A DNA stretch of 55,303 nucleotides, taken from a virus. The first letter of the stretch is position 1; each line of letters opens with the position of its first letter. The stretch is from the UHGV virus genome UHGV-0114783. One strand, written 5' to 3'. Below the pieces are notes generated by a model. That model was not told where the DNA came from. It did not search any database and saw only the letters and a program-made list of their open reading frames with translations. Shown here piece after piece: positions 19,944-48,523 of this stretch. A program made the translations under genes and the position numbers.

Positions 19944-20417
19944 ATGGCTGCATTAAAACCTGATGTGAAAGCCTTCATCATTCAGTCGCTTGCGTGCTAT
20001 GACACGCCATCGCAGGTGGTCGAGGCTGTCCAAAAAGAATTCGGGATCAAGATCACCCGCCAGCAGGCTGAATCTCACGACCCCACGAAGGCCAGCGGTA
20101 AGACGCTCGCCAAAAAGTGGATCGAGATGTTCCACGCGACGCGCGAACGGTTCCTGACCGAAACCAGCGACATTCCGATAGCGAACAAATCCTATCGCCT
20201 CCGCGTGCTTGACCGCATGGCAACCAAAACCGAGGGGATGAAAAACTTCTCCCTGACGGCGCAGCTTATCGAACAGGCCGCGAAAGAGGTTGGCGACGCT
20301 TACACCAATAAGCTGAAGGTTGAGAGCACTGGCAAGGATGGCGGCCCGATCAAGACCGAGACGACCAACCTCACCGCAGATCAGGCCGCAGAGATTTACC
20401 GCAAGATGATGGGGTGA
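19944..20417 (+). CDS. Terminase small subunit (putative)
   Basis: 157-aa ORF directly upstream of and overlapping the large terminase gene. Confidence 0.6.
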
Positions 20418-22042
20418 TCATGCCTCTCCCGTTTGAATTCGATTTCAGAAACCCTGATTACCAGATGGTTTTTGAATGGCGGATGGAGCGCTTACAGCGC
20501 ATTCGCCAGAACCCTGAAATGCTGCCAGCGCTAAAGCAGTTTTATCGCACCAACCCGGCACAGTTCATCATCGACTGGGGTATGACTACTGACCCGCGTA
20601 ACATCGATTATGGCCTGCCGGTCACCATCCCTTTTCTGCTGTTCCCGAAACAGGAAGAGTGGATTCACTGGATCATGGAGCGGCGCGAACGACTGGAGAA
20701 CGGCATCACCGAAAAGAGCCGCGAAATGGGGCTCAGTTGGACCGCGATCGGGCTGGCCTGCTCGCTTTGTCTCTTCAACAAAGAAATGGTTATCGGTTTC
20801 GGCTCCCGTAAAGAGGAATACGTCGACAGCACCGGTGACCCGAAGGCGCTGTTCTGGAAGGCGCGAAAGTTCGTGGAAACACTGCCCATCGAGTTTCGTG
20901 GTTCGTGGGACGAGAAGAAGCATGCGCCGTATATGCGCGTTGAGTTTCCAGATACTGGCGCGGTTATCAAAGGCGAGGCTGGCGACAATATCGGACGTGG
21001 TGACCGTACCACGCTCTACCTGGTGGATGAGGCTGCATTCCTCCAGCGTCCTCTGTTGATTGATGCGGCGCTGTCGCAAACCACCCGTTGCCGTATTGAC
21101 CTGAGCTCGGTTAATGGCATGGCGAACCCGTTCGCGCAGAAGCGCCACGGCGGAAAAATACCAGTATTCACGTTCCACTGGCGAGATGACCCGCGCAAGG
21201 ATGAAGAGTGGTATCGCAGGGAGTGCGAGAAAATCGACAATCCGGTGGTGGTGGCGCAGGAACTTGACCTGAACTACAGCGCATCTGCGGAAGGCGTCCT
21301 GATCCCGTCCGACTGGGTACAGGCTGCCGTCGACGCGCATATCAAACTTGGTATTCAGCCAACGGGCAAGCGACTGGGCGCGATGGACGTCGCCGACGAA
21401 GGCCGGGACAAAAATGCCTTTTCGACCCGTCACGGCTTCCTTCTGGAGAACGTGCGTGAATGGTCCGGCGTGGGCAGCGACATTTACCAGTCCGTTGAGA
21501 AGGTCTTCGGCTTTTGCGAACAGGACAACCTCGAAGAATTTCGCTTCGACGAGGACGGCCTGGGCGCTGGCGTTCGCGGCGATGCACGCGCCATCAACGA
21601 ACTGCGTAACGCTGCGCGCCGACCGTCAATACTCGCCACACCGTTTCGCGGTAGCGGCGCGGTGTTTGATCCGGACGACGAAGCGGTGCGCGGCGACAAC
21701 GGACAGGCCGCCCGCCTGAACAAGGACTTCTTCGCTAACGCCAAGGCCCAGAGCTGGTGGCGGTTACGCAAGCTTTTCCAGAATACCTATCGCGCCGTGG
21801 TTGAGGGCATGGCCTACAACCCGGACGAAATCATCTCAATCAGCAGCGCCATGGCGAGCAAAGACAAACTCATCATCGAGCTGTCGCAGCCGACCTACTC
21901 CATTAACGGCGTGGGGAAAATCGTTGTTGATAAACAGCCTGACGGCACCAAGTCGCCGAACCTCGCCGACTCGGTGATGATCAGCTACGCGCCAATGAAT
22001 TCAGCCCTGAACATCTGGGAGCTGCTAGGGAGACAGGCCTGA
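20414..22042 (+). CDS. Terminase large subunit
   Basis: 542-aa ORF in packaging position, ATPase/nuclease-like organisation. Confidence 0.8.
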
Positions 22043-25389: not shown

Positions 25390-25409
25390 TGCATATCTGT
25401 ACCTTATGC
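25390..25409. repeat. Left flanking repeat TGCATatCTGTACCttATGC (candidate att site of nested element)
   Basis: Matches 38309..38328 at 16 of 20 positions with identical CTGTACC core. Confidence 0.4.
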
Positions 25410-25594: not shown

Positions 25595-26824
25595 ATGATT
25601 GTTAGGCCACTAACTAGCGTCGAAGTGAAAAGCGCGAAGGCACAGGGCAAGGATTTCAGTTTGCACGATGGTTTCGGTTTGTTGCTTTACATCACAAGCC
25701 GGGGCGGTAAGTCATGGCGTTTTCGGTATGTACACCCGGTAACGAAGAAGAGACAAACCTATACCATTGGAAGATACCCGGAGTTTACTTTGTCCGAAGC
25801 GAGGGAGGAACGTTCGAAACTGCGCCGTATGGTAGCGCGGGGGATAGATCCGAACGAAGTCAAAAAAGATACCAGGAATGAACAGCGTAAAATGTACGCG
25901 CAGTCATTTCAGGCCGTTGCCGATGAATGGCTAAAAATCAAGATTAAAGAAGGTGCGAGAAGCAACACGCTTGAATCGCACAATGTGACGTTGAAGCATC
26001 TTTCCACGATTTTTAGGCATACCACAGTACATAAAATAAACGCAGCCGATACTATTCAGGCTTTTAAACCTTTCAGGGAAAGGCCATCAACGCTTACGAA
26101 AATGGTTATTACCATCAACGCCATAATGGATTATGCGGTAAATATTGGGGTTATTGAGCACAACCCACTATCGAAAATTGGTAAAGCATTCCCGGCTGAA
26201 AAAAACGAACCAAGAGCGACTTTACAGAAAGAGCGGTTGCCAGAATTTTTAAGCGCATGGAACGAGTTGAGCTTATGGGAGCCATCAAAGCTGGCATTAT
26301 TATTTCAGATCATTACGATGGTCCGACCTTCGGAAGCTGGCGGCGCTCTCTGGAATGAGATTGATTTTGATAATTCAATCTGGCAAATCCCTGCAAGCCG
26401 GATGAAAGGAAAGCGCCCCCACGTAGTCCCATTATCGAGCCAGGCTATAAACGTGCTTAAAGAGGCCGAAAAGTGGAAGCGCTGCGATTATGTTTTCCCC
26501 TCATGGCGAAAAGAAAATAAGCCGATCTCACGATGTGCGACTCAGGCCGGAATACACAAAACGTCGTTTAAAGGAATGATTGTTCCTCATGGGTTCAGGG
26601 CGTTGGCATCTACAGTTTTAAATGACGAGGGGTTCAACCCTGATGTGATTGAGGCTGCACTCGCTCACAAAAGCGCCGATGCGATTCGAAATGTTTATAA
26701 CCGTAGCGACTATCTGGAAAAACGCCGGGTTTTAATGCAATGGTGGGGGGACTTTATCGAGGCCGCAGAGCGTGGAGAGATACTGGAGACCAGCGGCGAT
26801 AAGGGCTTAAGGCTGGTTGTGTAG
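25595..26824 (+). CDS. int: Tyrosine integrase (P4-type) of the nested element
   Basis: 409-aa ORF, ATG with GAGAGG upstream; N-terminal KDFSLHDGFGLLLYITSRGGKSWRFRY and C-terminal HGFRALAST / AHK....R.VYNR motifs. Confidence 0.85.
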   Translation: MIVRPLTSVEVKSAKAQGKDFSLHDGFGLLLYITSRGGKSWRFRYVHPVTKKRQTYTIGRYPEFTLSEAREERSKLRRMVARGIDPNEVKKDTRNEQRKMYAQSFQAVADEWLKIKIKEGARSNTLESHNVTLKHLSTIFRHTTVHKINAADTIQAFKPFRERPSTLTKMVITINAIMDYAVNIGVIEHNPLSKIGKAFPAEKNEPRATLQKERLPEFLSAWNELSLWEPSKLALLFQIITMVRPSEAGGALWNEIDFDNSIWQIPASRMKGKRPHVVPLSSQAINVLKEAEKWKRCDYVFPSWRKENKPISRCATQAGIHKTSFKGMIVPHGFRALASTVLNDEGFNPDVIEAALAHKSADAIRNVYNRSDYLEKRRVLMQWWGDFIEAAERGEILETSGDKGLRLVV

Positions 26825-26966: not shown

Positions 26967-27179
26967 ATGTCTATAAGTGGCGGTGATATTCTGCTAAAAG
27001 GTGAAGTGAAAGCGCGTTTACGTTATCGCTCAGACTCGTCATTCTACGAGTTTCTAAAAGACGAGAAAAACGGCTTTCCAATGCCTTTTAAAGTCGGTGG
27101 GCGTAACTGCTGGTATGAAGATGAAGTAGATGCCTGGATAAGTAAACAAAGCGAGAAGCGCGGGATCTGCACATCATGA
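26967..27179 (+). CDS. AlpA-like small regulator/excisionase (putative)
   Basis: 70-aa ORF directly after the integrase gene. Confidence 0.55.
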   Translation: MSISGGDILLKGEVKARLRYRSDSSFYEFLKDEKNGFPMPFKVGGRNCWYEDEVDAWISKQSEKRGICTS

Positions 27180-27678: not shown

Positions 27679-27682
27679 GGTA

Positions 27683-28436: not shown

Positions 28437-28655
28437 CGGGTTTAGCAGCCTGAACGTTCTAGCGGGTAGCCGCTGATTTCCGTATAGCGGTATTTTTACG
28501 CCCGAAAACCAACCACACCCCCGATTTATGGCGGGGCGTGGTGGGGAGGCTTAACGCCTGCTGGTTTCCTAGAACGCCAGTCTGCTAACCCCGCCACGTC
28601 TCGCCACCCATGTTTAGCAGCATCTGGCGAGACTCCTTCAATATGTTCTAGGAGC
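28437..28655 (+). ncRNA. Candidate structured regulatory RNA region with mutually complementary repeats (P4 immunity-like arrangement)
   Basis: TTTAGCAGC...CGTTCTAG at 28441..28462 and again at 28613..28650, complementary block CTAGAACG...TCTGCTAA at 28569..28589, GC hairpin near 28512..28545. Confidence 0.35.
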
Positions 28656-28751
28656 CGCTAAAAATGGCTAGATCCGCACATCCAAAATTCACCTGGCGCT
28701 TTCTCGCGCTTAATCGCCACGACAAAAAAGCCAAACCTTGCCGTTTGTCCG

Positions 28752-29723
28752 TTGAGGCTGCGACCGAACGCGAAGCCCGCCGCATCCTTGCGCCGCACTT
28801 TATTTTGTCTCTGGCCGCACGTCTGCCAGTGCCGGAGGTGCGCCGTGTTTAACCTCCAGACTCTGACAGCCAAAGCCCGCGAGCTGCGCGGCAATGTCGT
28901 TAAAGCGGCGAGCACAAAGGGCAGTCGCACCATGACCCCTGTTTATGACCGCGACGAGCAGCGCAAGCTACGTGAGCGCATCCAGCAGACGCAACCGGAT
29001 TGGGTATTGCTCTGGTGGGATATTGCGACCGTAACCGGCTGGCGTACCAGCGATGTTTGCAACCTGCGCTATTCCTGCGTCAATTGGGAAACGGGGCAGG
29101 CGACAATTATCGTTGCCAAGCAAACCAAAGCCGCCGAAGCGCGGGCAACCCGCAAAGGTATTGAAATTGTGCGCCAGCAGCGCAAGGACGCCGCACGGCT
29201 CGCCGCTGACCATATCGCCTACATGAAGTGGGATAGTATCGGCTGTGATGAACTGGCCGCCGATATGAACGACGAAGAACAGGCGATTGTGTTCGGGCTG
29301 GTGGCAAAGGCTGACGTCAAGCACGACACCAAACAGTTACCGCCCGGCATCATCAAGCGGCTGCGTGACCGGCAGGATCGGAATCTGGTAGAGGACGACC
29401 TGGTATTTTCCCGCTCTCAAATCGAAAGTAACCGTTGTCAACGTCTGGAAGGTAGCGTGACCCGCCAAACCATCTGGCGCAAACTTCATGGCGTCATGGC
29501 GTGGTTTACCCGCTTCATTAACGCTAAATTGCGCCTGAGCGCCTATTCAAGCCGAAAAATAGCAGCCTTTAATCTTATGTCCGCAGGTGGCGAACAGGGC
29601 TTATTGGTGGCGTCTGAAATGCTGGGCCATAGCAACCCGGCGATAACTCGCACTTACCTTCAATTAGGCAGCAAAGCCGCCGCTATCCAGTCCCGTTTAG
29701 CAATGGAGGCCGGAAATGCGTAA
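28752..29723 (+). CDS. Divergent tyrosine-recombinase-like protein (start uncertain)
   Basis: ORF track 323 aa; C-terminal region with TGWRTSD ... LGHSNPAITRTYLQL resembling recombinase boxes; likely real start at an internal GTG/ATG (around 28846 to 28932). Confidence 0.45.
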   Translation: MRLRPNAKPAASLRRTLFCLWPHVCQCRRCAVFNLQTLTAKARELRGNVVKAASTKGSRTMTPVYDRDEQRKLRERIQQTQPDWVLLWWDIATVTGWRTSDVCNLRYSCVNWETGQATIIVAKQTKAAEARATRKGIEIVRQQRKDAARLAADHIAYMKWDSIGCDELAADMNDEEQAIVFGLVAKADVKHDTKQLPPGIIKRLRDRQDRNLVEDDLVFSRSQIESNRCQRLEGSVTRQTIWRKLHGVMAWFTRFINAKLRLSAYSSRKIAAFNLMSAGGEQGLLVASEMLGHSNPAITRTYLQLGSKAAAIQSRLAMEAGNA

Positions 29724-30155: not shown

Positions 30156-30373
30156 GCCAGTTACAACTGATTGATGCCACCTGTCAGATTGAACAGGCAC
30201 AGGCTGTTTTATCCATGTGGCTGGAGAGCACCACCAAAGACACTAGCCCCGACCTTCCGCGTCTTATCGGTTCAATCCTCACTTTGCTGCATGGCGTCCC
30301 GGAGGCAATGGAAGAAGCCGAAAGCAAGCTGGCTGACTATGTGATGCGTGAATATCGGGAGGGCAAGTCATGA
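30152..30373 (+). CDS. Hypothetical protein
   Basis: 73-aa ORF, coupled. Confidence 0.45.
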   Translation: MSQLQLIDATCQIEQAQAVLSMWLESTTKDTSPDLPRLIGSILTLLHGVPEAMEEAESKLADYVMREYREGKS

Positions 30374-30960
30374 GCTATCACGCAGAGGCAACGCCGCACG
30401 GCGTCAATATCATGACCAGCAATGATGCCGGGATATATGAGCATGTAGCCATTATAACCTATGAGAGCGCTGTAAGCCGTCTGGATGCGGGAGAGTACGA
30501 CGATACGCCAGATATCGGCTACGCCATTCATTTTGCCGTTGCTGATGGCGGGGCGCGTGGCTGGTTCGACTTTACTGCGCAGCATAACGTCACTATGTGG
30601 CGCTGGCTGATTGCTGCGACGTTCGTTTCTGAGATGAAGCGCGAAAACGGCACAACCTCCGTCACGGAGGCTGACGGCACAACATCGCAGGTGGCGATTT
30701 ACTCCAATGGTAATGCGGGCATGGTGATTTACCCGTTTGCTGAACGGCTGGCGATGGCGAACAACATCGAGGGCGCAATGATTGAGCGATACGGCGTCGA
30801 ACAGGGTACGGAAAACGCCATTGTGTTCTACCGCGCCATGCTGGACACGGAGCGCGGCGAGTTGACCCCGTTCGGGCGTCAGACGCTGGCAGAGCTACAC
30901 GATGGATTCATTGCCGATCTGAATGAAAACGGCTGGCCTGAAATGCCGCTGGCGCACTGA
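30370..30960 (+). CDS. Hypothetical protein
   Basis: 196-aa ORF immediately upstream of the primase gene. Confidence 0.45.
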   Translation: MSYHAEATPHGVNIMTSNDAGIYEHVAIITYESAVSRLDAGEYDDTPDIGYAIHFAVADGGARGWFDFTAQHNVTMWRWLIAATFVSEMKRENGTTSVTEADGTTSQVAIYSNGNAGMVIYPFAERLAMANNIEGAMIERYGVEQGTENAIVFYRAMLDTERGELTPFGRQTLAELHDGFIADLNENGWPEMPLAH

Positions 30961-30973
30961 GGGAGGTACACGA

Positions 30974-33754
30974 ATGCGTAATATCGACCTTATCCGCGAA
31001 GTGACCACCGCCGCAGCAGGGCGCTGGCCTTATGTGCTGGCTGGATTGTCTATCGACGTGCCTGATTCATCGCGCCGCCATGCCCCCTGCCCTGCATGTG
31101 GCGGTACGGATCGCTTCCGGTTCGATGATAACGGGCGCGGCAGCTTTATCTGCAACCAGTGCGGCGCGGGCGACGGGCTGGATTTAATCAAGCGGGTTAA
31201 CAACTGCGACACCACGGAGGCGGCGCACCTTGCCGCTGATGTGCTGGGTATTGATTACCGGGCAGCAGAAACCGACCCGACAGCAGCCAGCCAGAGGCGG
31301 GAGCAAATGGAGTCTGAGCGCCAGCAGCGCGAGCAGGAGCGCCAGAAACAGGCAGCAGAGGACGCAGAGCAGCGAAGGGCTACGTTTGCCAGCCTGTATG
31401 CCGGAATGCGCCAGAGCGTCACACGGGGCGAATCTGAATATCTGATGGCTAAGGGGCTGGACGGGTTCACTTTCCCGCTATTGCCTGATGGTTCAGTCCT
31501 GCTTGAGCTGGTGGATGAGTCCGGCGCAGTGGCAGCCGCACAGACCATCACCCCACAGGGAGAAAAGCGCCTTCTGACAGGTTCAGCAAAGCGCGGGGCA
31601 TATCACGCCGTAAACGCGCCAGAATCGCCGCAGAGCGTTTTAATTGCCGAGGGGCTGGCAACGGCGCTATCCGTTCACCAGATGCACCCCGAAGCGCTGG
31701 CGGTGGTCGCAGTGGACGCCGGAAACCTGCTTTCGGTCGCACAGCTTATGCGCCAAAAGCACCCTAACGCGCGGATCATCATTGCCGCAGACAATGACCA
31801 GAGCGCCGAAAGTGACAGAAGAGGAGGAGTGAAAATTAACACAGGTAAGGAGTGCGCGGAGAAAGCCGCAAAAGCCGTTGCTGGCTGGGCCTCGCTGCCA
31901 CCCGTGGACTACAAAGCGGACTGGAACGATTACCACCAACAATATGGACTGGAAGCCGCTACAGCAGCATTTAACGCCTCAATGTACCAACCGGAGGGTA
32001 AGAAAGTGGGTGTGACACTGGCAGCAATCGACGGCGGCAAGAAAAGCCCTGGTATCGACGACGACCTTAAACCGCGAGTAGAGAGCCGTTCGGATGGCAT
32101 TCACTGGATCACCCCGAAAGTGGACAAAGACACAGGGGAAATTATCAATACCGAGGCGTGGCTATGCTCTCCGCTGGAGATTGCTGGTGCAGGGAGTGAT
32201 AACGCCAGACAGCGCTTTCTGATCCTGCGTTGGGACGTTCCCGGCAATCGGGGGCAAGTTACCCGTGCGCTTCCTTGGGAGGACATTGGCGACCGCGAGG
32301 GATGGCGAACTCTGAAAAACGGCGGTGTCAGTGTGACGACCAAACCATCGTTGCGGGCAATTCTGGCCGACTGGCTACAGCGAACCGGTAGCGGCAAGGA
32401 GTGGCAGATCAGCCACACCACAGGCTGGCACAGCGGGGCGTACATCATGCCGGATGGTGATGTTATTGGTGATCCAGAGATACCGCTTTTATTCAGTGGC
32501 CGCAGTGCGGCGGCTGGTGGCTATACCGTCAGTGGAACGCCGGAAAGCTGGCGTGATTCGGTGGCGCGTCTTGCGTTGGGCAACCCGTCAATGATGCTGG
32601 GTGTTGCTGCTGCGCTGTCTGCACCGCTGATCGGGCTTGTTGGCGCTGACGGTTTCGGTGTTCACCTTTTCGAACAGTCCAGCGCAGGGAAGACGACGAC
32701 CGCCAACATTGCCAGCAGCTTATACGGTGAACCGGATGCCCTGCGCCTCACCTGGTACGGTACTGCGCTGGGTATCGCCAACGAAGCGGAAGCGCATAAC
32801 GACAGCCTGTTACCGCTGGACGAAGTGGGGCAGGGCAGTAGCGCCAAAGACGTTGCCACGTCGGCTTACACGCTGTTTAACGGTGCCGGAAAGTTACAGG
32901 GGGCGAAGGAGGGCGGCAACCGTGAGTTAAAGCGCTGGCGTACCGTGGCGATCAGTACCGGGGAAATGGACATTGAAACGTTTCTTTCTGCTGGTGGGCT
33001 GAAAGTTAAGGCCGGGCAACTGGTGCGACTGCTTAATTTACCGATGGAGAAATCAGTAACGCACCATGAGTACCAGAACGGGAAGCAACACGCCGACGCA
33101 CTCAAAGAGGCTTACCAGACGAACCACGGAGCCGCAGGCCGTGAATGGATTAAATGGCTTGCAGGCCACCAGCAGGAGGCAAAACAAGCTGTCAGAGCGG
33201 CGCAAGAGCGCTGGCGCAGTCTTATCCCCGCTGATTATGGCGAACAGGTTCATCGTGTAGGCGAGCGGTTCGCCATTCTGGAGGCGGCGCTGGTGCTTGG
33301 GATGCCTGTCACTGGCTGGGGGGAGCAGGAAAGCCGGGACGCCATCCAGCATGGCTTTAACGCCTGGGTGAAAGAGTTTGGCACGGGGAACCGTGAGCAT
33401 AAGCAGATCATCGAGCAGGCAGAGGCGTTTCTTAATGCATACGGACTGAGCCGATTTGCACCTTACCCTTATGACCCGGCTGACATGCCGATTCGGGATT
33501 TGGCCGGGTACCGTCAGAAAGGGGCGCATGATGCTGATCCGATAGTGTTCTACACGTTCCCGGCAGCATTCGAAGGTGAGATTGCGAAGGGATTCAACGC
33601 GAAACAGTTTGCCCGTGTGCTGGCCGGGGCTGGGGTGCTGAAACCGCCAGCCAGCGGAAGGGGGTATCAGCGTAAATCCCCGCGAATTGATGGACGCCAG
33701 ATAAACGTTTATGTGCTCCAGCTACGACCCGACGAGATAGAGGGTGAAGAATAA
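30974..33754 (+). CDS. Primase-helicase (P4 alpha-like: zinc ribbon, TOPRIM, Walker-A NTPase)
   Basis: ORF track 30923..33754 trimmed to the ATG at 30974; CPACGG...CNQCG zinc ribbon, TOPRIM-like IAEGLATA...IIIAADND, Walker A GADGFGVHLFEQSSAGKTT. Confidence 0.85.
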   Translation: MRNIDLIREVTTAAAGRWPYVLAGLSIDVPDSSRRHAPCPACGGTDRFRFDDNGRGSFICNQCGAGDGLDLIKRVNNCDTTEAAHLAADVLGIDYRAAETDPTAASQRREQMESERQQREQERQKQAAEDAEQRRATFASLYAGMRQSVTRGESEYLMAKGLDGFTFPLLPDGSVLLELVDESGAVAAAQTITPQGEKRLLTGSAKRGAYHAVNAPESPQSVLIAEGLATALSVHQMHPEALAVVAVDAGNLLSVAQLMRQKHPNARIIIAADNDQSAESDRRGGVKINTGKECAEKAAKAVAGWASLPPVDYKADWNDYHQQYGLEAATAAFNASMYQPEGKKVGVTLAAIDGGKKSPGIDDDLKPRVESRSDGIHWITPKVDKDTGEIINTEAWLCSPLEIAGAGSDNARQRFLILRWDVPGNRGQVTRALPWEDIGDREGWRTLKNGGVSVTTKPSLRAILADWLQRTGSGKEWQISHTTGWHSGAYIMPDGDVIGDPEIPLLFSGRSAAAGGYTVSGTPESWRDSVARLALGNPSMMLGVAAALSAPLIGLVGADGFGVHLFEQSSAGKTTTANIASSLYGEPDALRLTWYGTALGIANEAEAHNDSLLPLDEVGQGSSAKDVATSAYTLFNGAGKLQGAKEGGNRELKRWRTVAISTGEMDIETFLSAGGLKVKAGQLVRLLNLPMEKSVTHHEYQNGKQHADALKEAYQTNHGAAGREWIKWLAGHQQEAKQAVRAAQERWRSLIPADYGEQVHRVGERFAILEAALVLGMPVTGWGEQESRDAIQHGFNAWVKEFGTGNREHKQIIEQAEAFLNAYGLSRFAPYPYDPADMPIRDLAGYRQKGAHDADPIVFYTFPAAFEGEIAKGFNAKQFARVLAGAGVLKPPASGRGYQRKSPRIDGRQINVYVLQLRPDEIEGEE

Positions 33755-33778
33755 AAACACACATACGAGATGTTTTTT

Positions 33779-34073
33779 TGTTGGTTCAGTTGGTTCAGTA
33801 ACTATTTAATTAATATAAGTGTGTGTATTTAATGCATTTACATGCTTGTAAGTGAACCAACACCGAACCAACAAACGCCCATTTTGAACCAACAAATGCC
33901 GCTATTGAACCAACGCCCTTTTCTGGCTGGCCTGTAAATCTTTCCCACTGAACCAACACGAAAATAGCGTTTGTTGGTTCAAAACGGGGCTTTGTTGGTT
34001 CACTCCTAAAGAAATAATCCTTATAAAACAACAATCTTTACAAATTGAACCAACTGAACCAACTGAACCAACA
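33779..34073. repeat. Iteron array, about a dozen GAACCAAC/GTTGGTTC octamers in both orientations (candidate origin of the nested element)
   Basis: Direct reading: TTGGTTCAG x2, GAACCAAC x5, GTTGGTTC x2, then GAACCAACTGAACCAACTGAACCAAC, immediately downstream of the primase gene. Confidence 0.7.
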
Positions 34074-34355
34074 TGTTTTTGCTTATCTATAGAGTTTTTT
34101 CGGAGAGTAATTACTAATTTGGAGGGGCGTCGCCTAAGCGAAAGTATGCGGAAACGGCAACTTTGCGGAGCGGAAAAGAAAAAGCCCGCGCTGGAGAGGC
34201 GAGGGCTTTTGTTAACCATGTTTATGCAATCACACAACGGTGGATCACCGTCATAGTATCACGTCGATTTATCATTTCAATATGCGCAATGATATTTACT
34301 AACATTGCAATTTATGCAATGATCAGAATTTAAACAACGCAAAAGGTTATGAACA

Positions 34356-34919
34356 ATGAAACAGATAACCAATGTTAATCTGGAAAGTGATAACTCTGGT
34401 GGTACCGTCGAGGTGACTTACTCCGATGATACGTTCGAAAGGCTGACCTGCTCGCTTCCTGTGGCTCTCGTCATTGCGAATCTTGCAACGACGCTTAAGC
34501 AGGAACGTGCAACACGCATTGCAACTGGCGACCGCCTGCGTCGGATGTACACCCGCGATAGTGACATGATTACTCGCAGTGGCAGCGGCGCTTCTACGAC
34601 CTCCACCGCGCCAACGTCAATGGACGCTGAATTTATGCGCCTGGTACGCGCGGTAGCACCAAAGTATGACAACGCCCTTCCTGATACCGATCCTCGCCTT
34701 GTTGCGCTCGACGTGCTGCGTTACGCACCCGCTGAGGCATTCAGTGCGGTACATCCGACCCCGCTATCAGAGATTCAGCTTGATCAGGCTATCGACGTTC
34801 TGGAGCAGGTTGGCGACTACATGCGAGTTAACAACGTTTCACCGAAGATTCTCTCCACAGGCGACGCCATTCGCAGCATTAACACCGATAATGCCAGTTT
34901 CTGGCATCGCACGAAGTAA
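34356..34919 (+). CDS. Hypothetical protein
   Basis: 187-aa ORF after the iteron region. Confidence 0.45.
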   Translation: MKQITNVNLESDNSGGTVEVTYSDDTFERLTCSLPVALVIANLATTLKQERATRIATGDRLRRMYTRDSDMITRSGSGASTTSTAPTSMDAEFMRLVRAVAPKYDNALPDTDPRLVALDVLRYAPAEAFSAVHPTPLSEIQLDQAIDVLEQVGDYMRVNNVSPKILSTGDAIRSINTDNASFWHRTK

Positions 34920-34925
34920 GGAGCA

Positions 34926-35120
34926 ATGAGCATGGCTATTTATGACCCGAAATTAGCAGCAGGAAACCCGCAAAGCGCCGGGCGTAAACTCTTTGGCCGT
35001 GAGCATGCCGAGCAGTTACGTATGCGTAACAACTTCAACAACGAATGCCGCAATCTGGAAAAAGTCAACGAAGCGAATGCAAAGTTCTGGAGTGAACAGG
35101 ATGAAAAAGCCAAACGTTAA
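34926..35120 (+). CDS. Hypothetical protein
   Basis: 64-aa ORF. Confidence 0.35.
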   Translation: MSMAIYDPKLAAGNPQSAGRKLFGREHAEQLRMRNNFNNECRNLEKVNEANAKFWSEQDEKAKR

Positions 35121-35268
35121 ACCGGTATTACTTTCTGGCGACCAGTTCGCCGCAATCTGCAAGATCCAGGAGCGCGAACGCCAGCGCTCCGATATTGGCG
35201 TTGCGCCTTCTGTCCATCAAATTGCCCGTGGGCTGGTGGCGAAAGCGCTGGCATCAATTCAGGAATAA
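35101..35268 (+). CDS. Hypothetical protein (55 aa)
   Basis: ORF track 34993..35268 trimmed to the ATG at 35101. Confidence 0.3.
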   Translation: MKKPNVKPVLLSGDQFAAICKIQERERQRSDIGVAPSVHQIARGLVAKALASIQE

Positions 35269-35273
35269 CGACT

Positions 35274-36341
35274 ATGTCATATAACTGGATGCGCCATTTC
35301 GAGCTACAGCTCATCGATGAGAATGGCAAAGGAATTAGCCTTAGTGATTTCAAAGTTACCTTTGATATAGAGCGTAACGATAACAAATGGCCAGCTGTTG
35401 CGACGGTCAAGATCTACAACCTTTCACCAACTACTCAGAACCGTATTATGCAACGTGAGTTTGCCAAAATTGTGTTGATAGCGGGGTATGATGGTCGTGC
35501 GCAGGATGTAAGGGCAAGTGATGTGGGGATTGCACGTGAAATATCAGCAAGCGAAGTGGGCCAGGCTAACGGCGCAAACTACGGAGTCATTTTCAGCGGT
35601 GATATCCGCTTCACTGTGACCGGAAAAGATAACCCTGTCGATTCATGGGTACAGGTGCAGGCTTGTGACTCTGTGGAGGCGTTTACCAGCGCATTTATCA
35701 ACACCACTATCAGCAAAGGCTACACCACAGAAGATATTTATGTTGAGCTTATGAAAAGGCTGGAACCTTACGGCATTTCTCGCGGTATTGTTCCTGAATT
35801 CCCGGCAACGGTATTTCCTCGCGGTCGAGCCCTCTTTGGCTATGTCCATAACTATCTCGATGAAGTGGCCGCGCAGTGCAAAGCCACTTGGCAATTCAAC
35901 TATGGAAAAGTCGATATTGTTCCCAGAGACAAGGCCACTCATGAAGCTGTGGTTCTCAACGCTAATACCGGGCTTATCGGTATGCCTCAGCAGACCATCG
36001 GTGCGGGTGTGAATGTCAAATGCCTGATTAACTCACGGATTCACCTGAACGGGCTTATCCAACTGGATCAGGCTTCGGTATATCGTAGCGCCTTATCTGC
36101 GGATCAAATTGCCCAAGCTGGTGGGCCAATTTCGGTGGAAAGCCAAAACGGAAACCTTGTCACTACTGGATTAACGCAGAGTCCGGCGAGCATTGCTACC
36201 GATGGTATCTATAAGGTTCGGTATATCAGTTACACGGGCGACACGCGCGGTCAAGCGTGGTATATGGATCTGGCGTGTGAGGCTCGCGGGAATTCTGATT
36301 TATTTTCAAGTTCATTTATGAATAAGCAGAGTGAAGAATGA
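35274..36341 (+). CDS. Baseplate hub-like protein, diverged second copy
   Basis: 355-aa ORF colinear with 47449..48513 (shared WMRHFELQL, RFTVTGKDN, AVVLNANTGLIGMPQQT, YTGDTRGQAWYMDL blocks). Confidence 0.65.
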   Translation: MSYNWMRHFELQLIDENGKGISLSDFKVTFDIERNDNKWPAVATVKIYNLSPTTQNRIMQREFAKIVLIAGYDGRAQDVRASDVGIAREISASEVGQANGANYGVIFSGDIRFTVTGKDNPVDSWVQVQACDSVEAFTSAFINTTISKGYTTEDIYVELMKRLEPYGISRGIVPEFPATVFPRGRALFGYVHNYLDEVAAQCKATWQFNYGKVDIVPRDKATHEAVVLNANTGLIGMPQQTIGAGVNVKCLINSRIHLNGLIQLDQASVYRSALSADQIAQAGGPISVESQNGNLVTTGLTQSPASIATDGIYKVRYISYTGDTRGQAWYMDLACEARGNSDLFSSSFMNKQSEE

Positions 36342-36682
36342 AGAAGATTATTTTACTGATTGGTTTATTGGGCGCATCTGGAAGTCATGCTGCGCAGGTT
36401 ATTACCATGCAGTGCGGAAACTTTCGCTTTGAGATGATAGAAAACTCGATGGCGAGAATTAATGGTGAGTATGTAACATCTCAGAAAATTACAGAGTTCG
36501 GACAGAACGGGGCAAAAGTAGAAATGACGCTTATGCCTGCCAGCGATGGGAATCTGTATGGGTTTGAATACATCCATCCTGACGGTAGCAAAAAGCGCTG
36601 GCTGAATGTTGAGCTTATCCGCACCAATATGAATCAGGCGCGGATCATTGGCTCGTTTGATTGTAAGCGCGTGAAGGGGTAA
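36338..36682 (+). CDS. Small secreted protein with conserved QCG.F and DCK...KG motifs (second copy)
   Basis: 114-aa ORF with signal-peptide-like N-terminus, same position between hub and spike genes as the phage copy. Confidence 0.5.
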   Translation: MKKIILLIGLLGASGSHAAQVITMQCGNFRFEMIENSMARINGEYVTSQKITEFGQNGAKVEMTLMPASDGNLYGFEYIHPDGSKKRWLNVELIRTNMNQARIIGSFDCKRVKG

Positions 36683-36690
36683 GGGGAATC

Positions 36691-37353
36691 ATGCCATTCA
36701 TTCGACCCGCAAATGAGCAGGATGTAACACAGCTTGTTCAGGACAATGCTAAAGCATCTGTAACCAATGCGTTACCTGGCATTATTCGTTCGTTCGATCC
36801 CGAAACTGTCACCTGCGATGTTGATATAGCCATTACGGCAAGAATGACGAAGGCTGGCACAATGGGTGAAGATTTCCAGTATGAGTCCGTCCGCTATCCG
36901 ATTCTTAACGATTTGCCTGTGGTTTTTCCGCGCGGGGGCGGAGTTACGCTTACTTTCCCGGTTAAAGATGGTGATGAATGCCTCATCGTATTCTCTTCGC
37001 GTTCGATTGATTTCTGGTGGCAGAACGGCGGTGTGCAGGAGCGAGCTGATGGGCGTATTTTAGATCTGTCTGATGCGTTCGTTATTCCTGGCCCCCAATC
37101 ACAGGTAAAGAAGATATCCAATATCAGTACCAACGCTGCGCAGCTGCGTACAGATGATGGAGCGGCATTTGTAGAGGTGTCCGCTGGTGGAGCCATTACT
37201 ATTACCAGCTCTCAAATCACCCTTAACGGGCCCGTGCAGGTAAACGGAACGATCACTTCCACTGGCGACCAAACGGCCAACGGTATCAGCCAGATTAACC
37301 ATACCCACGGCGGCGTACAATCAGGCGGCAGCAACACAGGAAAACCACAATGA
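36691..37353 (+). CDS. Baseplate central spike protein (gpV-like), diverged second copy
   Basis: 220-aa ORF colinear with 49246..49986 (shared FPRGGG.TLTFPVK.GDECL, DLSDAF, TDDGAAFVEV, HGGVQ.GG..TG.PQ end). Confidence 0.65.
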   Translation: MPFIRPANEQDVTQLVQDNAKASVTNALPGIIRSFDPETVTCDVDIAITARMTKAGTMGEDFQYESVRYPILNDLPVVFPRGGGVTLTFPVKDGDECLIVFSSRSIDFWWQNGGVQERADGRILDLSDAFVIPGPQSQVKKISNISTNAAQLRTDDGAAFVEVSAGGAITITSSQITLNGPVQVNGTITSTGDQTANGISQINHTHGGVQSGGSNTGKPQ

Positions 37354-37529
37354 GCAATATTGAAAAACTGAAACCAGAAGAAAGCGGAGCCAGCCAGAAT
37401 GGAAAGGTTCGTACCTGGCTGGATGATATCAACGGGCAGCCGGAACCAGATGGTATTGGCAGCTTCGGTGAGAGTGCGATCTGCGAAGAATCACGCACAG
37501 CGGAAACCATGCGAAATAACGTAGGGTGA
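37350..37529 (+). CDS. Small hypothetical protein (59 aa)
   Basis: Hand-translated ORF starting at the ATGA overlap with the preceding gene; not in ORF track. Confidence 0.3.
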   Translation: MSNIEKLKPEESGASQNGKVRTWLDDINGQPEPDGIGSFGESAICEESRTAETMRNNVG

Positions 37530-37619
37530 CGGTCAGATGACGTGATCTGTAACTTTAAGTAGCGGTGCAGGGGCAGAACTCAGCACGCTACTTTTATTTT
37601 CTTTGTCAAAAGGTGAACA

Positions 37620-38093
37620 ATGGCGGCATTACCAACAATGGCTAAGGTTATGATTATTCAATCATTAGCTTGCTACGAACCCCCTTCCAGAATCGTTGAG
37701 CTTGTAAAACAAGATTTTGGCATCGTCGTTACCCGGCAGCAGATATCGGCCTACAACCCTGAAAATACAATGGCAAAAAATCTTAGCCAAAAATGGGTAG
37801 AACTCTTTAATCACACTCGCGCCCGCTTCCAGAGTGAAATATCCGAGATCCCTATCGCTAACAAAGCGTACCGGCTGCGTATGCTCGATCGCATGGCTAA
37901 CCGTGCAGAGGCAATCAAGAATTACGCATTAACAGCGCAGCTTATTGAACAGGCCGCGAAAGAGTGCGGGGACGCTTACACCAACAAATTAAAGGTTGAA
38001 ACAACGGGTAAAGATGGTGGTCCGATCAGAACGGAAACAACGAACTTAACCGCCGAAGAAGCCGGGGAGGCATACCGCAAATTTATGGGATAA
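37620..38093 (+). CDS. Orphan terminase small subunit homolog (no adjacent TerL)
   Basis: 157-aa ORF colinear with the phage TerS at 19944..20417, roughly two-thirds identical by eye, nearly identical C-terminal third. Confidence 0.65.
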   Translation: MAALPTMAKVMIIQSLACYEPPSRIVELVKQDFGIVVTRQQISAYNPENTMAKNLSQKWVELFNHTRARFQSEISEIPIANKAYRLRMLDRMANRAEAIKNYALTAQLIEQAAKECGDAYTNKLKVETTGKDGGPIRTETTNLTAEEAGEAYRKFMG

Positions 38094-38308
38094 CCACCAG
38101 CGCCGTGACACGTCACACGCAAAAATAGCACCGCCCATTAATGGGCTGGTGGCACAGCTTGCATATTGAAATTCCCTGTAAATCTTACAGATCTGGTATT
38201 GAGTAACTTACCCCATTCAGCGCCACACATCACAGAGCAGCCTATGGACTACACACAAAATCAGGCTGAAAATAAATCCTTATATTTCAGTTGATTAAAT
38301 AATAGCCT

Positions 38309-38328
38309 TGCATTCCTGTACCGGATGC
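38309..38328. repeat. Right flanking repeat TGCATtcCTGTACCggATGC (candidate att site of nested element)
   Basis: Matches 25390..25409; the ATG within it is the start codon of the next head gene. Confidence 0.4.
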
Positions 38329-38807
38329 CTGTTGGCATTGCCGGGGCTATCTCTCGCCCGCAGGACTTAACCGTCGAACCGGTGATCCTTAAATCCGCTA
38401 ACGCCTTCGCTGCCTATGGTCTGGCTGGCAAATATGACGCTGACGGCTTTTTCGTGCCGCTGGCGGACGGTGACACCGCCGACAAGGTGAAGGGGATCTA
38501 CGTTCGTCCGTATCCGACCACATCGCAGCCAGACATGGTTCGCCAGGTGGGGACGGATAAGAACTTCCCGGGTGACGCCATGAAGCGTGGCTACATGACC
38601 GTTAATCTCGGTTCTGATTTTGATGCCAGCACCATCAAAAAAGGCGACCCGGTATACGTTGTCGTCTCCACTGATGAATCCATAAAAGTGCCGCTGGGCG
38701 GCTTCATGTCCACGTCCGTCAGTGGCAAAAACGTGGCGCTGACCAACGCCGAATTCACAGGGGCCGGTGACGCTAACGGCAATGTAGAAATCTCCTGGAA
38801 GATTTAA
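38325..38807 (+). CDS. Head structural protein (putative decoration/accessory protein)
   Basis: 160-aa ORF directly upstream of the major capsid gene. Confidence 0.5.
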   Translation: MPVGIAGAISRPQDLTVEPVILKSANAFAAYGLAGKYDADGFFVPLADGDTADKVKGIYVRPYPTTSQPDMVRQVGTDKNFPGDAMKRGYMTVNLGSDFDASTIKKGDPVYVVVSTDESIKVPLGGFMSTSVSGKNVALTNAEFTGAGDANGNVEISWKI

Positions 38808-38818
38808 GGAACAGACAA

Positions 38819-39760
38819 ATGATTACTTTTGATCAGGCAACCGTAGATAGCTCCGGTGCCTTTCTCATCGGGGAGCTGGAGCGACTCGACCAGACGCTGA
38901 ACCTGCCTCTGGTGGGGTACACCTGGACCCGAGATATTCAACTGCGTGAAGACGTGTCTATCGCAGATGACATTTCCAGCTGGACGAATACCAGCTTCGC
39001 CGCTGCGGGTACTGGTGCAAATCCGAATGGTAAAAACTGGGTAGGCAAAGACTCCACCGCTATTGCTGGCGTGAACGTGGATATCAGCAAAGACGGCAAT
39101 CCACTGAACCTCTGGGGTATGGAACTGGGCTGGACCGTTGTAGAGCTGGCAGCTGCTCAGCAGGTAGGCCGCCCGATTGATACCCAGAAGTACGACGGGA
39201 TGCAGCTCAAATGGCAGATGGACAACGACGAGCAGGTTTACATCGGTGATGACGCACTCGGCCTGAAAGGTCTGGCAAACCTCGTCGGTGTGACGCTGAA
39301 CAACGCGCCGAAGACCTGGGCGAACTCAACCAACGACGAGATCCTCGATAGCGTGAACAGCATTCTGTCTAATGCCTGGGCAGCATCCGGTTATTCCATC
39401 GTGCCTTCTGATCTGCGCATTCCGCCAGAGCAGTATTCACTGCTGGCGAGCCGTAAGGTTTCCGAAGCGGGTAACCAGTCACTGCTGACCTATCTGGCTG
39501 TGAACACTATCGCTTTCCACCAGAACGGCGTTCCGCTTGAAATCAAAGCGGTCAAATGGCTGAAAGGGCGTGGGGTTGGCGGTAAAGACCGTATGATCGC
39601 CTACACCAACGACAAGAAATACGTGCGCTATCCGCTGGTGCCGTTGCAGAGCGTTCCTGTCCAGTATCGCGGTCTGTATCAGATTGCGACCTACTACGGC
39701 AAGCTCGGTGCGGTTGAGCCAGTGTACAAAGAAACCCTGTCCTACGTGGACGGTATCTGA
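38819..39760 (+). CDS. Major capsid protein (DUF2184-like)
   Basis: 313-aa ORF in capsid position. Confidence 0.65.
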   Translation: MITFDQATVDSSGAFLIGELERLDQTLNLPLVGYTWTRDIQLREDVSIADDISSWTNTSFAAAGTGANPNGKNWVGKDSTAIAGVNVDISKDGNPLNLWGMELGWTVVELAAAQQVGRPIDTQKYDGMQLKWQMDNDEQVYIGDDALGLKGLANLVGVTLNNAPKTWANSTNDEILDSVNSILSNAWAASGYSIVPSDLRIPPEQYSLLASRKVSEAGNQSLLTYLAVNTIAFHQNGVPLEIKAVKWLKGRGVGGKDRMIAYTNDKKYVRYPLVPLQSVPVQYRGLYQIATYYGKLGAVEPVYKETLSYVDGI

Positions 39761-39801
39761 TAACCAGAACGGCCCCGAAAGGGGCCAGAAGGGAACTGAA
39801 A

Positions 39802-48513: not shown

Positions 48514-48523
48514 GGTACGGGAC

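What the first reader, a model, noticed from the sequence alone, without database searches (positions are those of the whole stretch)
37620..38093. Orphan diverged TerS copy at the edge of the nested element
A 157-aa protein colinear with the phage TerS (19944..20417), roughly two-thirds identical by eye and nearly identical in the C-terminal third, sits at the right end of the insert with no TerL after it. A conserved C-terminus with a diverged N-terminal DNA-recognition half is what would be expected of a satellite TerS that keeps the helper TerL interaction but recognises its own packaging site, as established for SaPI-type islands.
Basis: partly seen in the sequence, partly recalled or inferred. 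Interest (0 to 1): 0.75.

Follow-up and report, generated by a model that had tools for sequence, protein, structure and literature searches.

The report
Embedded phage satellite's own small terminase
A 12.9-kb phage satellite sits inside a head gene of its helper prophage and carries its own, well-conserved copy of the phage's DNA-packaging "small terminase", which keeps the tail that docks to the helper's packaging motor but has a different DNA-binding body. This is a new example of a known way to hijack a phage, not a new mechanism.

Summary
ORF 37620..38093 and phage ORF 19944..20417 are both 157 aa and 65% identical without gaps (residues 1-100: 55%; 101-157: 82%). The surrounding "insert" is real: Citrobacter phage Omnitron has the empty site, and a 14-bp direct repeat (25390-25403 / 38309-38322) bounds a 12,919-bp element. 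That element has an integrase, AlpA, a C4 immunity RNA, Icd, a primase, and captured baseplate hub and spike genes, with terS as its last gene.

It resembles the helper-embedded PICIs of Tommasini et al. 2023, but sits at an unlisted site (the 5' end of the head cement gene) and lacks their attP motif.

Both proteins are Pfam DUF2280, which is not annotated as terminase. Comparative evidence says they are small terminases. They occupy the slot before TerL, their C-terminal tail type tracks the TerL type almost one-to-one (ARI 0.88), and the last 38 residues are shared with genuine Terminase_2 proteins that pair with the same TerL.

The element copy is under very strong purifying selection (dN/dS 0.02-0.05).

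The most likely function is redirecting the helper TerL to satellite DNA. The satellite's pac site was not found, and some relatives lack a matching TerL. Novelty: new member of a known kind.

The parts
25390..25403 (.). attL core (TGCATATCTGTACC), left boundary of the 12,919-bp element. The displaced RBS and first 7 codons of the phage cement gene lie at 25372-25405.
   Evidence: Three-way alignment with the empty site of phage Omnitron; sequence.
25595..26824 (+). Element tyrosine integrase (arm-binding, central and catalytic domains).
   Evidence: Pfam Arm-DNA-bind_3, Phage_int_M, Phage_integrase.
26967..27179 (+). AlpA-like regulator/excisionase.
   Evidence: Pfam Phage_AlpA at 20.5 bits, just under the cutoff. 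The ortholog in the E. coli loci is named AlpA family by PGAP.
28524..28611 (+). C4/CI-type antisense immunity RNA.
   Evidence: Rfam RF01695, 76.1 bits against a gathering score of 45.
28664..28852 (+). Icd-like cell-division inhibitor, followed by a second integrase-like ORF that runs to 29723.
   Evidence: NCBIfam NF033153, 79.8 bits; Pfam Phage_integrase on 28752..29723.
30923..33754 (+). Primase/replicase (Zn-ribbon, Toprim, DUF927).
   Evidence: Pfam.
35274..37353 (+). Captured late genes: baseplate hub (35274..36341), 114-aa protein (36338..36682), central spike with apex motif (36691..37353). They are diverged paralogs of phage genes at 47449.., 48584.. and 49279...
   Evidence: PHROG/Pfam; tblastn against the rest of the window gives 62%, 33% and 51%.
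37536..37619 (+). Conserved 84-bp leader of the element's terS. It holds a terminator-like hairpin (37557-37593) plus a T-run, then a small hairpin that includes the Shine-Dalgarno sequence (AAGGTG, 37610-37615).
   Evidence: Conserved in 6 elements whatever gene lies upstream. Consensus fold has one compensatory pair.
37620..38093 (+). Element small terminase (DUF2280, 157 aa): diverged core (aa 1-~119) plus a TerL-docking tail (aa ~120-157) of the same type as the helper's.
38094..38322 (.). Right arm of the element (non-coding, probable attP arm) and the attR core TGCATTCCTGTACC (38309-38322).
   Evidence: This arm is kept in ABWA45, where terS is deleted, and is absent in G5, which uses another att site.
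38325..38807 (+). Helper head cement/minor capsid gene, cut off from its RBS and first 7 codons by the insertion.
   Evidence: Pfam Phage_cement/XM1_gp53 matches start at profile positions 8-9; phrog_563; junction alignment.
19944..20417 (+). Helper phage small terminase (DUF2280). Its stop overlaps the TerL start by 4 nt.
   Evidence: It is 100% identical to Omnitron's and 99% to ECONIH5's.
20414..22042 (+). Helper large terminase (542 aa), the predicted partner of both TerS proteins.
   Evidence: phrog_2; PDB 8dkr large terminase E 1e-34; Sf6 gp2 E 5e-28.
15330..16112 (+). Helper Q antiterminator, the likely driver of read-through late transcription into the embedded element.
   Evidence: Pfam PF03589, 146 bits. 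The role is inferred.

Best explanation
Window 25390-38322 is a 12.9-kb phage satellite with a P4/PICI-type backbone: integrase, AlpA, C4 immunity RNA plus Icd, and a primase. It is integrated, in the same orientation, into the 5' end of the head cement gene of its lambdoid helper prophage, a helper-embedded configuration. Its last gene (37620..38093) encodes a satellite-specific small terminase of the DUF2280 family.

The protein is modular. Residues ~120-157 form a portable tail that docks onto the helper's 542-aa Sf6-like large terminase; it is the same tail type as the helper's own TerS. Residues 1-~119 hold a three-helix N-terminal DNA-binding region and a helical oligomerisation core. 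They belong to a different lineage (55-60% identity).

After induction, Q-antiterminated late transcription reads through the embedded element, including the terminator-like hairpin in front of terS. The satellite excises and replicates from its own primase. Its TerS then recruits helper TerL to a satellite-specific pac site, so that headful concatemers of satellite DNA (about three copies per helper-sized head) are packaged into helper capsids.

Shown here: the element boundaries, the gene content, the modular tail and its link to TerL type, and strong purifying selection. Inferred: DNA-binding specificity, the pac site, the transcription route and the packaging outcome.
For: - Insertion and att sites.
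- Satellite gene set, with no capsid, portal, TerL or lysis genes.
- The same element family occurs at the same site in other prophages and at tRNA-Thr with another integrase. In all 14 terS-bearing elements seen, terS is the last gene, while the late cargo varies.
- DUF2280 sits in the TerS slot. It lies directly upstream of, or overlapping, a large ORF in nearly all of the 56 loci, and portal follows in the contigs checked.
- Tail type and TerL cluster correspond almost 1:1 (ARI 0.877, n=53, maximum in permutations 0.171).
- Core identity does not follow tail type. The element core is closer to cores that carry other tails (68-71%) than to cores of phages with this TerL (58-60%).
- Terminase_2 small terminases that pair with the same TerL (97% identical) share only the last 38 aa with DUF2280 (hhalign probability 98%, E 3e-13), and they show the same alternative tails.
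- The TerL is genuine and related to the headful terminase of Sf6.
- The two window copies are saturated at synonymous sites (pS 0.8-0.9), while pN falls from 0.31 to 0.11 toward the C-terminus. This points to old divergence under selection, not a recent duplication or gene conversion.
- Among element copies dN/dS is 0.015-0.055, and terS has the lowest pN/pS in the element (0.03, against 0.15-0.30 for the other genes).
- The secondary-structure layout matches the usual TerS plan.
- The helper has a Q antiterminator, and the element is co-oriented within the late operon.
Against: - No pac site was identified, so nothing shows directly that the two TerS proteins bind different DNA.
- DUF2280 has no experimental or curated terminase annotation (Pfam DUF, phrog_546 'unknown function', no source name).
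- The structure model is of low confidence (pLDDT 61) and the fold search found nothing significant.
- In ET791 the element lies in a prophage with an unrelated PBSX-type TerL. Neither ET791 nor G5 has a detectable matching TerL elsewhere. The tail/TerL match is therefore not universal for the family. In ABWA45, which has the same mismatch, terS has been lost.
- The association test is weakened by linkage, because tail and TerL are adjacent and co-inherited. Only the mosaic core/tail pattern and the Terminase_2 case argue for function rather than mere adjacency.
- The terminator-like hairpin immediately upstream could mean terS is poorly expressed.
Confidence: 0.62

Rival explanations
1. Interference or decoy. 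The element's TerS mainly blocks helper packaging. It would do so either by titrating helper TerL through the shared tail or by forming mixed, non-productive rings with the helper TerS, rather than (or besides) packaging satellite DNA.
For: The tail is the same type as the helper TerS tail. The central helical region is 58-65% identical, so co-assembly is conceivable. Satellites commonly interfere with helper packaging: SaPI Ppi and PICI Rpp (my own knowledge; Rpp is cited in PMC10111431, ref. 7).
Against: A pure decoy would not need a conserved N-terminal DNA-binding region, yet pN is 0.00 over codons 1-45 in the window, ET791, ECONIH5 and Apirhabdus versus G5 comparisons (0.01 for EC2001). 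The element needs some route into capsids, and no cos-like DNA is shared with the helper.
Confidence: 0.15
2. Passive cargo. The gene is a leftover of 'late gene capture' from a former helper and has no specific role in the satellite's life cycle.
For: HE-PICIs and PICIs capture clusters of helper late genes (PMC10111431). Hub and spike paralogs lie beside it. Some copies have no matching TerL in the genome, and one relative has lost the gene.
Against: It is the only late gene kept in every terS-bearing variant, always in last position. It is the most constrained gene in the element (pN/pS 0.03). It forms its own lineage, 94-99% identical across Escherichia, Apirhabdus and metagenomes, and no phage-borne close relative was seen: the relatives at 68-69% whose contexts were checked (P0008, P0010) are ordinary phage copies, while the few closer database relatives (75-87%) were not examined.
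Confidence: 0.1
3. DUF2280 is not a small terminase. It would be a DNA-binding regulator or accessory packaging factor encoded next to TerL, and the element copy would manipulate helper late gene expression.
For: There is no curated terminase annotation and no significant structural match. In phages the gene is strongly linked to an upstream metallopeptidase gene (53/56 loci).
Against: No other TerS candidate lies between the lysis genes and TerL. The stop and start codons overlap with TerL. A genuine Terminase_2 protein replaces it in the same slot and carries the same tail.
Confidence: 0.08
4. Artefact: the second copy results from misassembly or from tandem or duplicated prophages.
For: None beyond the presence of two homologous genes in one window.
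Against: The att junctions are clean and an empty site exists in a sequenced phage. The same architecture occurs in several independent complete genomes. The two copies are saturated at synonymous sites.
Confidence: 0.01

Closest known systems
SaPI small terminase (TerS-S of SaPI1/SaPIbov1, Staphylococcus aureus pathogenicity islands)
   Same: In both cases a satellite-encoded homolog of the helper's TerS works with the helper's TerL, and no TerL is encoded by the island. That the SaPI TerS redirects pac-type headful packaging to island DNA is from my own knowledge; the PICI 'terS' core component is described in PMC10085698.
   Different: The host phylum, the TerS family (DUF2280) and the backbone (P4/GN-PICI-like with AlpA and C4 RNA rather than Stl/Str) all differ. 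This element is embedded in the helper prophage. No capsid-size redirection genes were detected. Nothing has been tested experimentally here.
Helper-embedded PICIs (HE-PICI; Tommasini, Mageeney & Williams 2023, PMC10111431), model element Eco567.11capE
   Same: [quoted passage not shown] Both interrupt the target gene without supplying a replacement sequence. Both show the four-zone layout: int+AlpA, immunity RNA zone, replication zone, and a late zone with captured helper late genes. Relatives at chromosomal sites exist.
   Different: The target site (5' end of the cement gene of an E217-like head module) is not among the 14 listed sites. None of the terms 'cement', 'DUF2280' or the accessions of carrier genomes occur in the paper or in its held supplements. 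The clade-specific doubled attP motif TGTATTGC-N4-TGTATTGC is absent. 11capE lacks terS and is presumed to be cos-packaged, whereas this element carries a TerS and its helper has an Sf6-like TerL.
Gram-negative PICIs as modelled by SatelliteFinder (de Sousa et al. 2023, PMC10085698)
   Same: Four of the five core components are present in the canonical order (integrase, alpA, primase-replicase, terS), and the size is 10-15 kb.
   Different: The element carries tail (baseplate hub and spike) genes, which are 'forbidden' components in that model, and it is surrounded by prophage genes. It would therefore be rejected by the tool. No capsid-morphogenesis gene was found.
Satellite P4
   Same: Both have an arm-type integrase, a C4/CI-type immunity RNA, an Icd/Kil-like gene after the RNA, and a large primase.
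   Different: No sid, psu or delta homologs were detected. P4 is cos-packaged and has no TerS. The helper here is lambdoid with an E217-like virion module, not P2-like.
C-terminal TerL-binding segment of P22 gp3 and other small terminases
   Same: A short C-terminal segment of TerS mediates docking to TerL, while the N-terminal and central parts bind DNA and oligomerise (my own knowledge). Here this is inferred from the link between tail and TerL type.
   Different: The 38-aa tail here is shown only by comparative genomics. It is shared between two unrelated cores (DUF2280 and Terminase_2).

Membership tests
Small terminase (TerS) | Encoded immediately upstream of the large terminase in the packaging module | tested here: met
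   The phage copy overlaps the TerL start by 4 nt. Nearly all 56 DUF2280 loci have a large ORF (about 360-547 aa) starting within roughly -49 to +350 nt. Portal follows in the contigs examined. The element copy is the exception by design, since no TerL follows it.
Small terminase (TerS) | Sequence or structural membership in a characterised TerS family | tested here: not met
   The only matches are Pfam DUF2280 and phrog_546 'unknown function'. There is no NCBIfam hit and no PDB sequence hit. Foldseek found no significant hit with a low-confidence model. hhalign to Terminase_2 aligns only the last 38 aa.
Small terminase (TerS) | C-terminal segment specific for the cognate TerL | tested here: met
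   Tail cluster versus TerL cluster gives ARI 0.877 (maximum in permutations 0.171). The same tail is found on Terminase_2 proteins paired with the same TerL. This is comparative evidence, not biochemical.
Small terminase (TerS) | Binds a pac or cos site and stimulates TerL | not testable with these tools
   No pac site could be identified.
PICI (SatelliteFinder definition, PMC10085698) | Core components: integrase, alpA/stl-type regulator, primase-replicase, capsid morphogenesis, terS | tested here: inconclusive
   int, AlpA (borderline Pfam score), primase and terS are present. No capsid-morphogenesis gene was recognised.
PICI (SatelliteFinder definition, PMC10085698) | Absence of tail and holin genes ('forbidden' components) | tested here: not met
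   Baseplate hub (phrog_196) and central spike genes lie within the element.
Helper-embedded PICI (PMC10111431) | Integrated within, and disrupting, a helper prophage late gene, co-oriented, without a replacement sequence in attP | tested here: met
   The att core lies in codons 2-6 of the cement gene. The RBS and first 7 codons are left at attL. All major element genes are on the + strand like the late operon.
Helper-embedded PICI (PMC10111431) | Doubled attP motif tgTGTATTGCantgTGTATTGCa at about -81 and +132 bp from the attP centre | tested here: not met
   The only match in the window lies far from the element (18558), has 3 mismatches, and is at chance level. Different repeats are present at 25431-25474.
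Helper-embedded PICI (PMC10111431) | Integrase belongs to the HE-PICI integrase clade | not tested
Absence of the motif and of carrier genomes from their tables suggests the integrase lies outside the clade they surveyed.
P4-like satellite | sid/psu/delta capsid and transactivation genes, plus the alpha primase and integrase | tested here: not met
   Only the integrase, primase, C4/CI RNA and Icd-like gene are present. No hits to sid, psu or delta families appeared in the Pfam, PHROG or NCBIfam scans of element ORFs.

The most novel reading that the evidence does not exclude
The element could be a satellite that re-equips helper virions at both ends. Its own TerS would choose which DNA is packaged, and its own baseplate hub and membrane-puncturing spike would alter the tail tip. 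The 38-aa C-terminal tail would act as a plug-in adaptor that moves between unrelated TerS cores. A satellite could then parasitise any phage carrying this TerL, whatever TerS that phage uses, while keeping a private DNA-recognition core taken from a lineage its helpers do not use.
Probability: 0.25. Interest if true: 0.7.

Novelty: new member of a known kind. Interest (0 to 1): 0.5.

Why it matters
Three things would follow if the reading is right.

1. It gives the DUF2280 family a function. More than 1,500 database proteins, including the TerS slot of the prophages that carry this TerL type (found in about 6% of complete E. coli genomes), are currently labelled 'unknown'. It also defines a 38-aa TerL-docking module that can be tested directly by tail swaps.

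2. It adds a pac-type, TerS-bearing case at a new late-gene site to the recently described helper-embedded satellites. The published model element is cos-type and has no TerS.

3. It shows a blind spot. Satellites that carry tail genes and sit inside prophages are excluded by design from current satellite finders, and they inflate 'prophage' calls. This 55-kb window is really a 42-kb phage plus a 13-kb satellite.

The helper/satellite pair, with two TerS proteins sharing one TerL, is a convenient natural system for studying how packaging specificity is divided between TerS core and tail.

Tried and rejected
- Structure route. The AlphaFold model of the element TerS had pLDDT 61. Foldseek against the PDB gave no hit with E<1; G20c and P74-26 TerS chains appeared only among the noise. 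This neither supports nor contradicts the TerS reading.
- PDB sequence search with the phage TerS found nothing.
- pac-site hunt, part 1. Repeats near the element ends gave only short arm-type repeats at attL and an 8-bp inverted repeat after terS.
- pac-site hunt, part 2. Synonymous divergence is lower in terS codons 1-90 than in 91-157, and significantly so. The whole element is a recombination mosaic relative to G5 (pS from 0.05 to 0.86 between neighbouring genes), so this does not indicate an embedded cis-site.
- pac-site hunt, part 3. A 50-nt island is 90% identical between the two terS copies. Family-wide synonymous conservation there equals the rest of the gene (0.47 vs 0.46, p=0.37), so there is no evidence for a shared site.
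- The 'M41 peptidase' upstream of terS in ET791 might have been the counterpart of the phage metallopeptidase that precedes phage terS. It is not (E 1.9).
- A chimeric query (terS + TerL) seemed to show phage terS genes whose 3' half was element-like. This was a megablast extension artefact: that phage's TerS is the ordinary helper type.
- PADLOC found no defence genes among the element's accessory ORFs.
- The first tail clustering with blastp-short merged all tails through the shared linker. It was redone with the last 16 residues.

Full report
**1. The observation**

ORF 37620..38093 (+) and ORF 19944..20417 (+) both encode 157-aa proteins. BLASTP aligns them end to end without gaps: 65% identity, 82% positives, E 2e-81. 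Identity is 52% for residues 1-50, 58% for 51-100 and 82% for 101-157; the least similar stretch is residues 41-60 at 30%. The upstream copy overlaps by 4 nt the start of a 542-aa protein (20414..22042), which is followed by the portal gene. The downstream copy is followed by 215 bp of non-coding DNA and then by head genes. 'Nearly identical C-terminal third' is a mild overstatement.

**2. The insert is real and has precise ends**

Citrobacter phage Omnitron (CP115737, 41.9 kb) matches window 19238-25403 at 99% and window 38309-39800 at 97%, and these two segments abut in the phage record. A three-way alignment shows a 14-bp direct repeat: TGCATATCTGTACC at 25390-25403 and TGCATTCCTGTACC at 38309-38322. 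The phage has a single copy. The element is therefore 12,919 bp.

The core lies in codons 2-6 of the phage gene that encodes the head cement/minor capsid protein (Pfam Phage_cement/XM1_gp53, phrog_563). In the window, that gene's ribosome-binding site and first seven codons stay at attL, and the remaining ORF (38325..38807) starts at an internal ATG.

The insert has no megablast match among 50,697 phage records.

**3. What the insert is**

Gene content, left to right:
- an arm-type tyrosine integrase;
- an AlpA-like gene;
- a reverse-oriented gene pair annotated elsewhere as TumE-like toxin-antitoxin;
- a C4/CI-type antisense RNA (Rfam RF01695, 76 bits);
- an Icd-like gene (NCBIfam, 80 bits);
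- a second integrase-like ORF;
- small ORFs;
- a 943-aa Zn-ribbon/Toprim/DUF927 primase;
- a baseplate hub, a 114-aa protein and a central spike with apex motif;
- the DUF2280 gene.

There is no capsid, portal, TerL, tail tube/sheath or lysis gene.

The helper is a lambdoid temperate phage. It has an integrase, RecET, an S24-type CI repressor, an O protein, a Q antiterminator and lysis genes, followed by an E217-like virion module.

Related elements occur in E. coli.
- In EC2001, ET791, ABWA45 and ECONIH5 they lie at exactly the same site of related prophages.
- In strain G5 a relative with a different integrase lies at the chromosomal tRNA-Thr site with no prophage around it.
- Apirhabdus apintestini repeats the window's arrangement.
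- Eight IMG/VR contigs add five embedded copies and at least two non-embedded ones.

The late cargo varies among these elements (M41-like protein; hub and spike; baseplate, plug, hub and spike; an IS5). The DUF2280 gene is always the last gene, except in ABWA45, where it has been deleted.

**4. Comparison with published satellites**

This architecture matches the 'helper-embedded PICI' concept of Tommasini, Mageeney and Williams 2023 (PMC10111431). Shared features are integration within a helper late gene, co-orientation, no replacement sequence, and four zones: integration, immunity RNA, replication, and a late zone with captured helper late genes.

There are differences.
- The clade-specific doubled attP motif is absent.
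- The cement-gene site, the term DUF2280 and the accessions of carrier genomes do not appear in the paper or its held supplements.
- The published model element lacks terS and is presumed to be cos-packaged.

SatelliteFinder treats tail genes as forbidden components of PICIs, so it would reject this element.

**5. Is DUF2280 a small terminase?**

No library says so. Pfam lists it as a DUF, phrog_546 is 'unknown function', NCBIfam has no hit, and none of the listed database relatives (the best 120 of 1,505) is named terminase by any source. There is no PDB sequence match. The AlphaFold model is of low confidence and the fold search was uninformative, although the predicted secondary structure follows the usual TerS layout: three short N-terminal helices, long central helices, a beta-hairpin and a terminal helix.

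The comparative evidence is strong.
- Position. In 56 genome loci the gene sits directly before a large ORF, usually overlapping it, and portal and head genes follow where this was examined. The 542-aa partner is a genuine large terminase: PDB 8dkr E 1e-34, Sf6 gp2 E 5e-28, phrog_2.
- Tail variants. The conserved core ends at ...AAKE[CV]GDAYTN and is joined to at least seven recurrent, unrelated C-terminal tails.
- Tail/TerL link. Clusters of the last 16 residues correspond almost one-to-one to clusters of the downstream TerL (adjusted Rand index 0.877; maximum 0.171 in 2000 permutations; n=53). Core similarity does not follow tail type, so core and tail recombine as modules.
- A natural swap. 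In EC2001 the same TerL (97% identical) is preceded by a 205-aa Pfam Terminase_2 / phrog_51 small terminase instead of a DUF2280 protein. Its last ~33 residues match the DUF2280 tail.
- Two cores, one tail. Across relatives, Terminase_2 proteins carry the same alternative tails as DUF2280 proteins. Profile-profile comparison aligns only residues 120-157 of DUF2280 with 168-205 of Terminase_2 (probability 98%, E 3e-13).

Two unrelated cores sharing a set of interchangeable tails that track the TerL type is what a TerL-docking module would look like.

**6. The element's copy**

Element-borne proteins form one tight lineage, 94-99% identical across E. coli, Apirhabdus and metagenomes. This lineage is distinct from the helper lineage, in which the window, Omnitron and ECONIH5 copies are 99-100% identical. 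All element copies carry the tail type found only with the 536-542-aa TerL class.

Their core is 58-60% identical to the cores of phages with that TerL, but 68-71% identical to some cores that carry other tails. The protein therefore looks like a foreign core joined to the helper-compatible tail.

Selection data point to a functional gene.
- The two window copies are saturated at synonymous sites over the whole gene (pS 0.80-0.92), while pN falls from 0.31 to 0.11 toward the C-terminus. The conserved C-terminus is maintained by selection, not by recent gene conversion.
- Among element copies dN/dS is 0.015-0.055.
- terS has the lowest pN/pS of all element genes: 0.03, against 0.15-0.30.

The gene has a good Shine-Dalgarno sequence. 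It is preceded in all elements by a conserved 84-bp leader whatever gene lies upstream. The leader contains a terminator-like hairpin with one compensatory change, followed by a T-run.

**7. Mechanism proposed**

The helper's SOS-sensitive repressor triggers induction. Q-modified RNA polymerase then transcribes the late operon and reads into the co-oriented element, through the hairpin, and expresses terS late. The element excises, which restores the cement gene, and replicates. Its TerS brings helper TerL to satellite DNA for headful packaging.

The composite, at 54.8 kb, is about 131% of the phage genome. The helper therefore cannot be packaged intact unless the element leaves. All of these steps are inferred from anatomy and from the published behaviour of 11capE and of SaPI-type TerS. 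None was tested here.

**8. Limits and counter-evidence**

No pac site was found.
- The 5'-to-3' gradient of synonymous divergence in terS is explained by the recombination mosaic of the whole element.
- The 50-nt island of 90% identity between the two copies shows no family-wide synonymous constraint.

The tail/TerL match is not universal.
- ET791 and ABWA45 carry the element in prophages with a PBSX-type TerL, which shows only 35% identity confined to the C-terminal domain.
- A chimeric-query search found no matching TerL elsewhere in ET791 or G5, whereas EC2001 and ECONIH5 have one (at megablast sensitivity).

Such copies may be waiting for a helper, as chromosomal PICIs do, or they may be stranded. 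Loss of terS in ABWA45 fits the second reading, but it is a single case.

The matching TerL is common (352 of 5,426 complete E. coli genomes). The terS cassette is rare (5 of 5,426 have part of it, and 4 of these keep terS).

**9. Verdict**

It is a new member of known kinds: a satellite TerS of the SaPI/PICI type carried by a helper-embedded satellite. Its useful specifics are a functional assignment for DUF2280, a defined 38-aa TerL-docking tail shared across TerS families, a new late-gene integration site, and captured baseplate hub and spike genes. Interest is moderate (0.5).

Noticed in passing
window 35274-37353 (compare 47449-49986): The satellite carries its own diverged baseplate hub (62% to the phage's), a 114-aa protein (33%) and a central membrane-puncturing spike with apex motif (51%). 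EC2001 and one IMG/VR relative additionally carry baseplate and plug genes. Tail-tip genes in a satellite are unusual and are 'forbidden' in SatelliteFinder's PICI model. Their role (altered tail tip, interference, or passive capture) is unknown.
   Followed up: partly
window 28524-28852: A C4/CI-type antisense RNA (Rfam RF01695, 76 bits) lies immediately upstream of an Icd-like gene and a second, shorter integrase-like ORF. This is a P4/P1-type immunity region inside the satellite.
   Followed up: partly
window 25372-25405 and 38325-38807: The insertion separates the helper's head cement gene from its RBS and first 7 codons. The attR copy of the core differs by one base (A to T), so excision resolving to that version would change Tyr4 to Phe. 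The remaining ORF has no obvious Shine-Dalgarno sequence.
   Followed up: partly
window 37536-37619: A conserved 84-bp leader precedes the element's terS. It has a terminator-like hairpin with a T-run, and a second small hairpin that sequesters the Shine-Dalgarno sequence. This suggests expression depends on antitermination and/or translational control.
   Followed up: partly
window 19292-19912; loci L008-L062: In 53 of 56 genomic loci the phage DUF2280 gene is preceded by a 'putative phage metallopeptidase' gene (PF18894; PHROG labels it 'transposase'). This linkage is much tighter than that with any one TerL type, and the element copies lack it. The reason is unknown.
   Followed up: no
L002 3227-3844; proteins P0121-P0240: Terminase_2-family small terminases carry the same alternative C-terminal tails (…AAEAYKKMMG or …EMLEDDDC) as DUF2280 proteins. 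Tails appear to be exchanged between unrelated TerS cores according to the partner TerL.
   Followed up: yes
L004 (E. coli ABWA45) about 20600-21250; L003 (ET791): Where the resident prophage has a PBSX-type TerL, one element has lost terS (only the att-proximal arm remains) and the other keeps it intact. This may be an example of decay after a helper mismatch, but only two cases were seen.
   Followed up: partly
window 27319-27964 (- strand): The only reverse-oriented genes of the element are a 93-aa/119-aa pair annotated in E. coli relatives as DUF6516/TumE-family toxin-antitoxin. They have no PADLOC hit.
   Followed up: partly
window 20414-22042: The helper's large terminase has no Pfam-A or NCBIfam hit at all, despite clear similarity to PDB large terminases (8dkr, Sf6 gp2). 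Profile-based annotation misses this TerL class.
   Followed up: yes
window 25431-25474: A tandem pair of 21-nt repeats (GCGTTATCGTTCGGAATCATA / GCGTTACTGGCCTGAACCATA) lies 30-70 bp inside attL. These are candidate integrase arm-binding sites and differ from the published HE-PICI motif.
   Followed up: no
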